Shown: positions 675 to 1,240 of the stretch, one piece after another
Position numbering within the stretch: position 1 is the first letter of the stretch
Layout of the letters: each line of letters starts with the position of its first letter
Source of the DNA: Octopus sinensis
Lineage: Eukaryota
Reading direction: 5' to 3'
NCBI RefSeq assembly: GCF_006345805.1
Contig: NW_021833545.1
Span: forward strand, 1-27,638
Length of the DNA stretch: 27,638 nucleotides
The notes under the pieces: model-generated
Seen by the model: only the letters and a program-made list of their open reading frames with translations
Told to the model about the DNA's origin: nothing
Database searches by the model: none
Program-made: the position numbers and the translations under genes

Positions 675-1240
675 ATTTCTTTACTACCCACAAGGGGCTG
701 AACACAGAGGAGACAAACAAGGACAGACATAGGCATTAAGTCGATTGCATCGACCCCAGTGCGTAACTGGTACTTAATTTATTGACCCCGAAAGGATGAA
801 AGGCAAAGTCGACCTCGGTGGAATTTGAACTCAGAACGTAACGGCAGATGAAATACGTATTTCTTTACTACCTACAAGGGGCTAAACACAGAGGAGACAA
901 ACAAGGACAGTCATAGGTATTAAGTCGATTACATCGACCCCAGTGCGTAACTGGTACTTAATTTATCGACCCTGAAAGGATGAAAGGCAAAGTCGACCTC
1001 GGCGGAATTTGAACTCAGAATGTAACGGCAGACGAAATACGTATTTCTTTACTACCTACAAGGGGCTAAACACAGAGGGGACAAACAAGGACAGACATAG
1101 GTATTAAGTTGATTACATCGAACCCAGTGCGTAACTGGTACTTAATTTATCGACCCCGAAAGGATGAAAGGCAAAGTCGACCTCGGCGGAACGTAACGGC
1201 AGACGAAATACATATTTCTTTACTACCTACAAGGGGCTAA
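675..1240 (-). mobile_element. Tandem array of head-less SINE family A units (184, 184, 171 bp plus a 27-bp tail fragment)
   Basis: ATTTCTTTACTACC recurs at 675, 859, 1043 and 1214. Each unit contains the reverse complement of a B-box-like GAGTTCAAATTCC (lost by a 13-bp deletion in unit 3) and the core GCCTTTCATCCTTTCGGGGTCGATAAATTAAGTACCAG. Same family as the full copy at 2066-2286. Confidence 0.9.

What the first reader, a model, noticed from the sequence alone, without database searches (positions are those of the whole stretch)
675..1240. SINE builds head-less tandem units always joined at one palindromic site
Seen: all three junctions read GAAATACGTATTTC (850-863, 1034-1047; one mismatch at 1205-1218), a 14-bp palindrome. 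It is made of the SINE 3' end (GAAATAC) plus the internal GTATTTC. In full copies GTATTTC is the 3' arm of a head hairpin (GGGCGAAATGC-loop-GTATTTC, see 2066-2286), so units start right after the anticodon-like loop. An independent locus shows the same junction (5386-5399). Inference: either the SINE preferentially inserts into that site of its own family, or loop-cleaved RNA is circularised (3' end pairing with GTATTTC) and copied by rolling-circle reverse transcription.
Basis: partly seen in the sequence, partly recalled or inferred. Interest (0 to 1): 0.7.

Follow-up and report, generated by a model that had tools for sequence, protein, structure and literature searches.

The report
Octopus SINE multimer with fixed junction
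Three near-identical, front-shortened copies of a short jumping repeat (SINE), probably in an octopus genome, sit head-to-tail and share one joint with a second locus, most likely because one old joint was copied rather than made afresh each time, so this is an ordinary kind of repeat array whose one oddity is that the joint falls exactly where the repeat's two ends are predicted to pair.

Summary
The 14-mers are real (850-863, 1034-1047 exact; 1205-1218, 5386-5399 one mismatch). The array (minus strand) is a 29-nt remnant, three ~184-nt units and 5 nt of a fourth. "Always joined" rests on two loci, not four events: the three units form one clade against dispersed copies (96/93). The perfect palindrome looks derived: the 5386 joint has G at the centre, and no free SINE end reads GAAATAC. 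Locus 5159-5560 is a headed heterodimer (left arm with tail B, right arm with an (ATT)n tail), which one circle cannot produce. No ribozyme was found, and the circular fold is no better than shuffles. Best reading: one ancestral joint in a read-through dimer or multimer master, expanded by unequal exchange. The architecture is described in the blood clam and in squamates. One real oddity: the joint is the best or second-best 5' start (1 of 183, 2 of 194) for flush pairing with the element's 3' end, so the first joint was probably RNA-structure-guided. Self-homing and recurrent RNA joining remain open; the genome-wide count could not be run.

The parts
1212..1240 (-). u0: 29-nt remnant of a type-B tail, the surviving 5' end of the array
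   Evidence: blastn 1240-1213, alignment
1041..1211 (-). u1: unit from SINE position 51 to the end of tail B, with a 13-nt deletion through the B-box-like motif
857..1040 (-). u2: complete 184-nt unit; shares column 197 with u3 and columns 219/235 with u1/u0 (possible crossover mosaic)
673..856 (-). u3: complete 184-nt unit with the most private changes (7 substitutions); outgroup state at columns 219 and 235
668..679 (-). partial fourth joint GAAAT-CG-GTATT where the array ends; either the start of a fourth unit or a target that resembles it
   Evidence: 6 of 7 match; 87 of 55,280 window 7-mers do as well
850..863 (.). joint u2/u3, perfect 14-bp palindrome
1034..1047 (.). joint u1/u2, perfect 14-bp palindrome
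1205..1218 (.). joint u0/u1, one mismatch (C-to-T at the central CpG)
1241..1512 (+). 5'-truncated copy of an unrelated SINE family ('family C'), fused head-to-head with the array across a ~3-nt AAC microhomology
2066..2286 (-). full type-B monomer with head; 12-bp TSD at 2054-2065 and 2287-2298; inserted in the tail of a family-C copy
5159..5560 (+). headed heterodimer: head + body + tail B, joint at 5386-5399 (G at centre), second body + type-A tail + (ATT)n; possible 10-nt TSD of low complexity at 5150-5159 / 5567-5576
4897..5104 (+). older type-A monomer (head + body + type-A tail), followed by (ATT)n; used as a reference
5627..5844 (+). older type-A monomer, followed by the (ATT)n tract 5842-6653; used as a reference

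Best explanation
The array is three 184-nt, 5'-shortened units of one SINE joined at one site, most likely copied from a single ancestral joint: a headed element with an internal duplication probably served as a read-through master, and its repeated body then likely changed unit number by unequal crossing-over or slippage, which would keep the joint fixed by construction. SHOWN: the unit boundaries; the headed heterodimer at 5159-5560 with the same joint; the clade of array units; no T4 run on the sense strand of the array or monomer; the 5' fusion at 1240/1241. INFERRED: (1) the first joint formed once, probably at the RNA level, when the 3' end of one transcript paired with the GTATTTC arm of a stalled or cut template (RT template jump or ligation); (2) Pol III reads from the head through the joint, and an RTE-type LINE copies dimers and multimers; (3) unit number grows by DNA-level exchange, in the master or at this locus; (4) a G-to-C change at the centre made the palindrome perfect before the u0-u2 tails were duplicated; (5) the array lost its head by 5' truncation or by a microhomology deletion into the neighbouring SINE.
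For: Array units are a clade against the two dispersed B copies (96/93 on 5 rows, 184 columns). They share 6 columns against the outgroup copies (128, 131, 160, 176 against both; 178 and 184 against the one outgroup without a gap). Identity within the array is 93.5-96.5%, against 91.3-92.5% to the 2066 copy and 84.7-85.8% to the dimer's left arm. Subset-shared changes ({u0,u1,u2} at 219 and 235, {u2,u3} at 197) fit a middle unit that is u3-like 5' and u1-like 3', the pattern expected from unequal exchange. A headed element with two arms and a terminal (ATT)n tail carries the same joint, and its right-arm body groups with B bodies rather than with the A monomers (80/94). No T>=4 run on the sense strand of the array or the monomer. 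Precedent: head + (head-truncated unit)n + complete tail in the blood clam (PMC11481361, passage); SINE-derived satellites whose units keep box B, for which the authors suggest unequal recombination, and also insertion into the same locus (PMC10702118). For step 1: the joint ranks 1 of 183 and 2 of 194 starts for flush end pairing; the two A-type monomers score 0.00-0.02.
Against: The bases just after the joint differ between loci. At columns 62-66 the array matches the left arm and monomer, while the dimer's right arm has another variant. A single crossover in a 5159-type dimer would give right-arm-like unit starts, so a second (homo-multimer) master or conversion must be assumed. In the 8-row body tree the array units are an unresolved fork, and no node reaches the starred support level. 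The mosaic argument rests on 3 sites, and only 1 of them (197) is on the {u2,u3} side. Polarising the centre base as G rests firmly on one locus (5386), since the G at the other two ends may come from the target. The dimer as it stands has three T4 runs, and its TSD is low-complexity. The 6-of-7 flank match and u3's larger number of private changes also fit serial self-insertion. Only 2 joint-bearing loci could be examined.
Confidence: 0.55

Rival explanations
1. Self-homing. Read-through RNA carries the GTATTTC arm right behind an internal tail B. The LINE RT starts at that tail, and the nicked target anneals to the sequence behind it, so resident copies of the family are hit at position 50/51. 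Homology with the resident head seals the 5' end. Each round adds one head-less unit and remakes the joint.
For: The array's 3' flank matches the dimer continuation at 6 of 7 bases (87 of 55,280 window 7-mers, 0.16%). The post-joint variant differs between the two loci. The 3'-most unit or arm is the more decayed in both loci: u3 has 7 private substitutions against 2 (+1 deletion) and 3; intact CpGs are 2 of 11 in the dimer's right arm against 5 of 11 in the left. PMC10702118 names insertion into the same locus as a route (passage). 3' read-through priming in R1/R2-type elements is recalled, not checked.
Against: The CpG difference is not significant (Fisher p=0.36). The monomer's target matches at only 4 of 7 (11% of 7-mers do as well), and it is the A-rich tail of another SINE. 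Three or more hits at one locus by one lineage are needed. The flank match is one event, equally read as the stub of a fourth unit.
Confidence: 0.18
2. Recurrent RNA-level joining between molecules. The 3' end of one transcript invades the head hairpin of another that was cut or stalled at the loop. RT template jumping or an RtcB-type ligation then fuses them at the same base again and again, giving heterodimers and homo-multimers independently.
For: The joint is the top-ranked flush-pairing start. End pairing is 0.80-1.00 for 5 of 5 B-type ends. The model allows different right arms in the two loci. Precedent: RtcB joins U6 to L1 RNA before retrotransposition (PMC6789731, abstract).
Against: One founding event explains the rank equally well. 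Pairing drops to 0 in 5 of 5 when the last 3 nt are removed, and those bases overlap the TSD in the only free monomer, so the complementary end may itself be a product of the joint. A three-unit clade needs local duplication anyway. RtcB needs a 2',3'-cyclic phosphate 3' end, which is not known for this RNA.
Confidence: 0.14
3. Loop-cut SINE RNA closes on itself through its terminal pairing, is ligated, and is copied by rolling-circle reverse transcription into head-less multimers, like a ribozyme-free retrozyme.
For: Units are exact-length head-to-tail copies of 184 nt, within the 150-300 bp reported for metazoan retrozymes (PMC7761336, passage). Linear units are predicted to pair end-to-end (0.74-1.00). 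No head is present at the array.
Against: It cannot give the 5159 heterodimer (headed, two different tails). Units share changes in subsets rather than star-like (rough P>=2 reversions 0.016-0.039, P>=3 0.001-0.004; my own model). The missing head coincides with a fusion breakpoint at 1240/1241. Circular MFE is no better than shuffles (75, 165 and 47 of 200 as stable). No ribozyme family at E<=10, and no hammerhead core motif on either strand.
Confidence: 0.08
4. Assembly artefact or chance palindrome with no biological meaning.
For: The window is repeat-rich; a single read or assembly was not available for checking.
Against: Units differ by 3.5-6.5% plus a 13-nt deletion, and 6 of 12 private substitutions in u1-u3 are CpG transitions, which is the pattern of ageing genomic copies. 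The joint recurs at a separate locus.
Confidence: 0.02

Closest known systems
TSD-(SINE)n-TSD multimers of the blood clam Scapharca broughtonii (Martelossi et al. 2024, PMC11481361; passages read)
   Same: Mollusc SINE multimers: a first unit with a full head, middle units truncated at the same head position, and a last unit with the complete tail. The 5159-5560 element has this layout with two units.
   Different: Here the inner units end in a distinct tail (B) that also ends a free TSD-flanked monomer, and the joint is self-complementary. The array has lost its head and terminal tail. Family identity with the bivalve SINEs was not shown.
SINE-derived satellites (sSat) of squamates (Vassetzky et al. 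2023, PMC10702118; parts 1-2 of 5 and passages)
   Same: Tandem units shorter than the parent SINE, with fixed boundaries across loci. Some keep the 3' part of the head with box B, or the body plus LINE-derived region (e.g. a 179-nt sSat3Ati2 unit).
   Different: Only 3 full units here, below their working threshold of four middle monomers. A term search of that paper found no 'palindrom', 'rolling' or 'microhomolog'.
Octopus tRNA-derived SINEs OK/OR1/OR2 (Ohshima and Okada 1994; seen only as citations)
   Same: Host is probably an octopus (best named hit of a LINE fragment in the window is Octopus vulgaris, 70% identity). Octopus genomes are SINE-rich (11.6% in O. vulgaris, PMC13282606). That this family corresponds to OK is my recollection only.
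   Different: No consensus could be obtained, so the family is not assigned. Whether the dimer is already in Repbase, Dfam or the 1994 paper is unchecked.
Metazoan non-LTR retrozymes (PMC7761336; passages)
   Same: Tandem 150-300 bp units proposed to arise by reverse transcription of RNA circles.
   Different: They are defined by hammerhead ribozymes, stable circular folds and lack of promoters. None of these holds here: no ribozyme, circular z near 0, and a Pol III-like head in full copies.
U6/L1 chimeric retrogenes (PMC6789731; abstract) and dimeric SINEs such as Bov-A2 (PMC5786205)
   Same: A full Pol III-type RNA joined to a 5'-truncated partner that supplies the LINE-recognised tail.
   Different: U6/L1 joints are at variable positions in L1. 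Here the position is fixed and both partners belong to one SINE family.

Membership tests
tRNA-derived SINE | Short interspersed repeat with several dispersed copies | tested here: met
   8 body-containing copies at 5 loci in 27.6 kb, on both strands
tRNA-derived SINE | Variable-length target-site duplication | tested here: met
   12-bp TSD around 2066-2286; the dimer's 10-nt candidate is low-complexity
tRNA-derived SINE | tRNA-like head with A and B boxes | tested here: inconclusive
   B-box-like GTTCAAATT in the monomer, u2, u3 and the dimer's right arm; a strict A-box pattern (recalled) matched 0 of 4 heads; ARAGORN 0 at default, inconsistent at low threshold; no Rfam tRNA hit
tRNA-derived SINE | 3' end shared with a partner LINE | not testable with these tools
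   No eukaryotic repeat library; no match to tail B elsewhere in the window. An RTE partner is inferred from the (ATT)n tail (own knowledge)
SINE multimer / SINE-derived tandem repeat (sSat-type) | Head-to-tail units shorter than the SINE, with fixed boundaries | tested here: met
   3 units starting at position 51
SINE multimer / SINE-derived tandem repeat (sSat-type) | Units within a locus more alike than dispersed copies | tested here: met
   93.5-96.5% against 84.7-92.5%; clade 96/93; only 2 dispersed B copies available
SINE multimer / SINE-derived tandem repeat (sSat-type) | At least four middle monomers (satellite nucleus, as used in PMC10702118) | tested here: not met
   3.2 copies: a short multimer, not a satellite
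SINE multimer / SINE-derived tandem repeat (sSat-type) | First unit headed, last unit with full tail, outer TSD | tested here: inconclusive
   Met in layout by 5159-5560. The array's head side is broken at 1240/1241, and no TSD was found (longest common flank words 4-5 nt)
Metazoan retrozyme | Hammerhead (or other self-cleaving) ribozyme in each unit | tested here: not met
   Rfam E<=10 on 660-1250 gave 2 chance hits and no ribozyme; no hammerhead core motif on either strand
Metazoan retrozyme | Stable, highly self-paired circular fold | tested here: not met
   z -0.25, +0.76, -0.65 against 200 shuffles each; 52-54% paired
Metazoan retrozyme | Accumulating circular RNA in vivo | not testable with these tools
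   No RNA data
Octopus OK/OR1/OR2 SINEs | Sequence identity to the published consensus | not testable with these tools
   1994 paper not read; SINEBase supplement unreadable; motif searches in two other supplements found no octopus entry (file 1 of PMC4758252 not searched)

The most novel reading that the evidence does not exclude
A SINE that multiplies through a ribozyme-free RNA circle. Its RNA is cut at the head loop, the freed GTATTTC arm captures the element's own 3' end in a flush terminal helix, the ends are ligated, and a LINE reverse transcriptase rolls round the circle to give head-less multimers. A milder version, in which the joint is remade repeatedly by any RNA-guided route (self-homing, or inter-molecular joining), has a combined probability of about 0.3 and would deserve about 0.65.
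Probability: 0.08. Interest if true: 0.8.

Novelty: new member of a known kind. Interest (0 to 1): 0.33.

Why it matters
If the best reading holds, this is one more short SINE multimer of a kind already described in a clam and in reptiles. It mainly warns that a fixed, palindromic joint can be one inherited event copied many times. The octopus family is still a good test bed for how SINE dimers and SINE satellites begin. The joint has a predicted structural cause (flush pairing of the 3' end with the head hairpin arm), and copies are dense, so founder, self-homing, RNA-joining and circle models make different predictions that one genome-wide count would separate. If self-homing or circles were shown, it would be a new route of SINE amplification.

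Tried and rejected
Searches for outside copies, all empty: blastn of unit u2 against plasmids and phages; two DNA patterns against bacterial and archaeal genomes, looking for contaminating copies; two translated stretches spanning the joints against the protein collection; one against protein representatives, which gave 2 hits at 28-29% identity in repetitive proteins, dismissed as chance. These collections hold no octopus assembly, so the blanks say nothing about copy number. Viral and metagenome contigs were not available and stayed unchecked. Rfam on the whole window gave 118 sub-threshold hits, nearly all on simple repeats; restricted scans gave 2 chance hits each. Whole-RNA fold stability is unremarkable (monomer z -1.66, dimer z -1.06). 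Predicted DNA hairpins at the joints are weak (-2.3 to -3.6 kcal/mol), and the imperfect dimer joint is no weaker than the perfect ones, so a cruciform hotspot was rejected. No TSD was found around the array or around array plus family-C copy. An age difference between dimer arms is not significant. A tRNA-intron-type cut was considered and dropped because no cloverleaf could be assigned. Pfam found nothing on two LINE-like frames. Literature: nine searches listed no paper on this octopus dimer or joint. The octopus genome paper of 2015 was not held, the 1994 octopus SINE paper was not read, and the SINEBase supplement and file 1 of PMC4758252 could not be seen. The family and its dimer may therefore already be catalogued.

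Full report
Setting. The window is AT-rich, microsatellite-laden DNA of a eukaryotic look. A LINE-like frame at 25649-26047 has 10 relatives, and the only named one is an Octopus vulgaris protein at 70% identity, so the host is probably an octopus. This rests on one named hit. No eukaryotic genome collection was available, and all seven searches for outside copies gave nothing usable, so every sequence argument below uses the copies inside the window.

Observation. The 14-mer occurs exactly at 850-863 and 1034-1047 and with one mismatch at 1205-1218 and 5386-5399; these are the only 4 matches at up to 2 mismatches (chance mean 0.16). The array spans 668-1240 with period 184 and 3.2 copies. On the minus strand it is a 29-nt remnant u0 (1212-1240), u1 (1041-1211, with a 13-nt deletion), u2 (857-1040), u3 (673-856), and five further bases that continue as a fourth unit would (668-672). 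All units start at position 51 of the full copy, the first base of the 3' arm of a head hairpin. Units u2 and u3 keep a B-box-like motif, so they lack half the head, not all of it. A tRNA origin could not be confirmed.

Family anatomy. The family has two tails. Type A ends in (ATT)n: the older monomers at 4897 and 5627, with 3 of 10 and 2 of 11 CpGs intact. Type B ends in GAAAT: the young monomer at 2066-2286, with 10 of 11 CpGs intact and a 12-bp TSD. No free end reads GAAATAC: in the monomer the AG after GAAAT lies inside the TSD, and the array ends GAAAT-CG. At its 5' side the array abuts a 5'-truncated copy of another SINE family in the opposite orientation, across a short AAC microhomology. 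The missing head therefore coincides with a breakpoint and is not evidence that the array never had one.

How many events? The three units are 93.5-96.5% alike, against 91.3-92.5% to the monomer and 84.7-85.8% to the dimer's left arm. They form a clade (96/93) in a 5-row tree; in the 8-row tree of the shared 119-column body they are unresolved. Six columns are shared by all three against the outgroup copies, two of them against only one outgroup because the other has a gap. The tails of u0, u1 and u2 share a change at column 219 and the C (T in u0) at the centre of the joint, where u3, the monomer and the dimer have G; u2 and u3 share a change at column 197. So the perfect palindrome most likely arose once and was duplicated, and u2 looks like a u3/u1 mosaic, as unequal exchange predicts. 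A single rolling-circle event predicts identical starting units. On a rough model of my own, two or more reversions to the outgroup state have P 0.016-0.039. Caveats: there are only three informative sites, and the G at two of the three ends may come from the target.

For every possible 5' start I computed the probability that the two RNA ends pair flush. The true joint ranks 1 of 183 in the monomer (0.64; the three starts at 0.5 or more are positions 50-52) and 2 of 194 in the dimer's left arm (0.96). All 5 B-type ends score 0.80-1.00, the two A monomers 0.00-0.02, and the dimer's right arm up to 0.54. The signal vanishes in 5 of 5 when the last three bases are removed. The site is therefore not arbitrary (about 3 of 183 starts), but this could be one founding event, and the complementary end may itself be a product of the joint. 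Two further points keep recurrence alive: the bases after the joint differ between the array and the dimer (columns 62-66), and the array's 3' flank matches the dimer continuation at 6 of 7 bases (87 of 55,280 window 7-mers; the monomer's flank matches at 4 of 7, which 11% do).

What goes against the circle. One circle cannot give a headed element with two different tails. Circular folds are no more stable than shuffles (75, 165 and 47 of 200 as good). No ribozyme family was found at E<=10, and no hammerhead core motif. Predicted DNA hairpins at the joints are weak, and no stronger for the perfect palindrome.

Mechanism. I commit to a single ancestral joint, probably made at the RNA level through 3'-end pairing, carried in a read-through master and expanded by unequal exchange or slippage (0.55). 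The array and monomer have no T4 run on the sense strand; the older dimer has three. The rivals are self-homing through read-through homology (0.18), recurrent template jumping or ligation between RNAs (0.14), circle plus rolling-circle RT (0.08) and artefact (0.02). Pol III read-through, an RTE partner and the RNA-level first step are inferences.

Comparison with known systems. Multimers made of a headed first unit, equally head-truncated middle units and a complete last tail are described in the blood clam (PMC11481361, passages). SINE-derived satellites with fixed unit boundaries, some keeping box B, are widespread in squamates, and the authors suggest unequal recombination and insertion into the same locus (PMC10702118, parts 1-2 of 5 and passages). 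Retrozymes (PMC7761336, passages) are what the circle model would work like, but two defining features were tested and not met. U6/L1 chimeras (PMC6789731, abstract) give a precedent for ligation before retrotransposition. PMC5786205 (parts 1-3 of 5 and a supplement search) covers RTE-derived SINE bodies and the dimer Bov-A2, with no octopus entry in its supplement. PMC4758252, PMC4824008 and PMC3531059 (passages) only cite the octopus SINEs of 1994. PMC13282606 (part 1 of 3 and a supplement search), PMC10925132 and PMC8967140 (passages) document SINE abundance in octopus. Nine searches listed no description of this joint, but the 1994 and 2015 octopus papers and repeat databases were not seen.

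Verdict. This is a new member of a known kind (a short SINE multimer), with one unexplained structural coincidence that a genome-wide count could test directly. Interest 0.33.

Noticed in passing
window 3775-4851: A second, unrelated tandem array: about 6 near-identical units (period 158-207) made of a conserved core separated by variable (ATT/ATC)n spacers. It could be a multimer of a retroelement 3' end joined through its microsatellite tail.
   Followed up: no
window 4897-6653: Three members of the SINE family (A monomer, heterodimer, A monomer) are chained in one orientation through (ATT)n tracts, ending in an 812-bp ATT tract. This suggests insertion into each other's tails.
   Followed up: partly
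window 1241-1512 (+), 2286-2600 (-), 14015-14335 (-), 15530-15915 (-), 16675-17060 (+), 24555-24925 (-): A second abundant SINE family ('family C') with an internal (TA/TG)n tract and a short AG-rich repeated tail. The type-B monomer is inserted in the tail of the 2286 copy, and the 1241 copy is fused head-to-head with the array. A likeness to octopus CORE-SINEs is recalled, not tested.
   Followed up: partly
window 25130-26270 (-): 3' part of a LINE with a (CAT)n tract at its end; the frame 25649-26047 has 10 relatives, the best named one from Octopus vulgaris; no Pfam match. RTE type is my recollection.
   Followed up: partly
window 21770-22102 (+): An open frame that resembles the start of a Penelope-type reverse transcriptase (motif recalled); no Pfam match at E<=0.1.
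   Followed up: partly
window 27148-27366, 23124-23385, 26566-27048: Long inverted repeats: 101-nt arms at 98% with a 17-nt gap, 86-nt arms at 97% with a 90-nt gap, and 121-nt arms at 79%. They are MITE-like or fold-back elements that would give long double-stranded RNA if transcribed.
   Followed up: partly
window 1190-1192 (u1, alignment columns 73-85): The 13-nt deletion in u1 lies between short TTC direct repeats and removes the B-box-like motif, consistent with slippage.
   Followed up: partly
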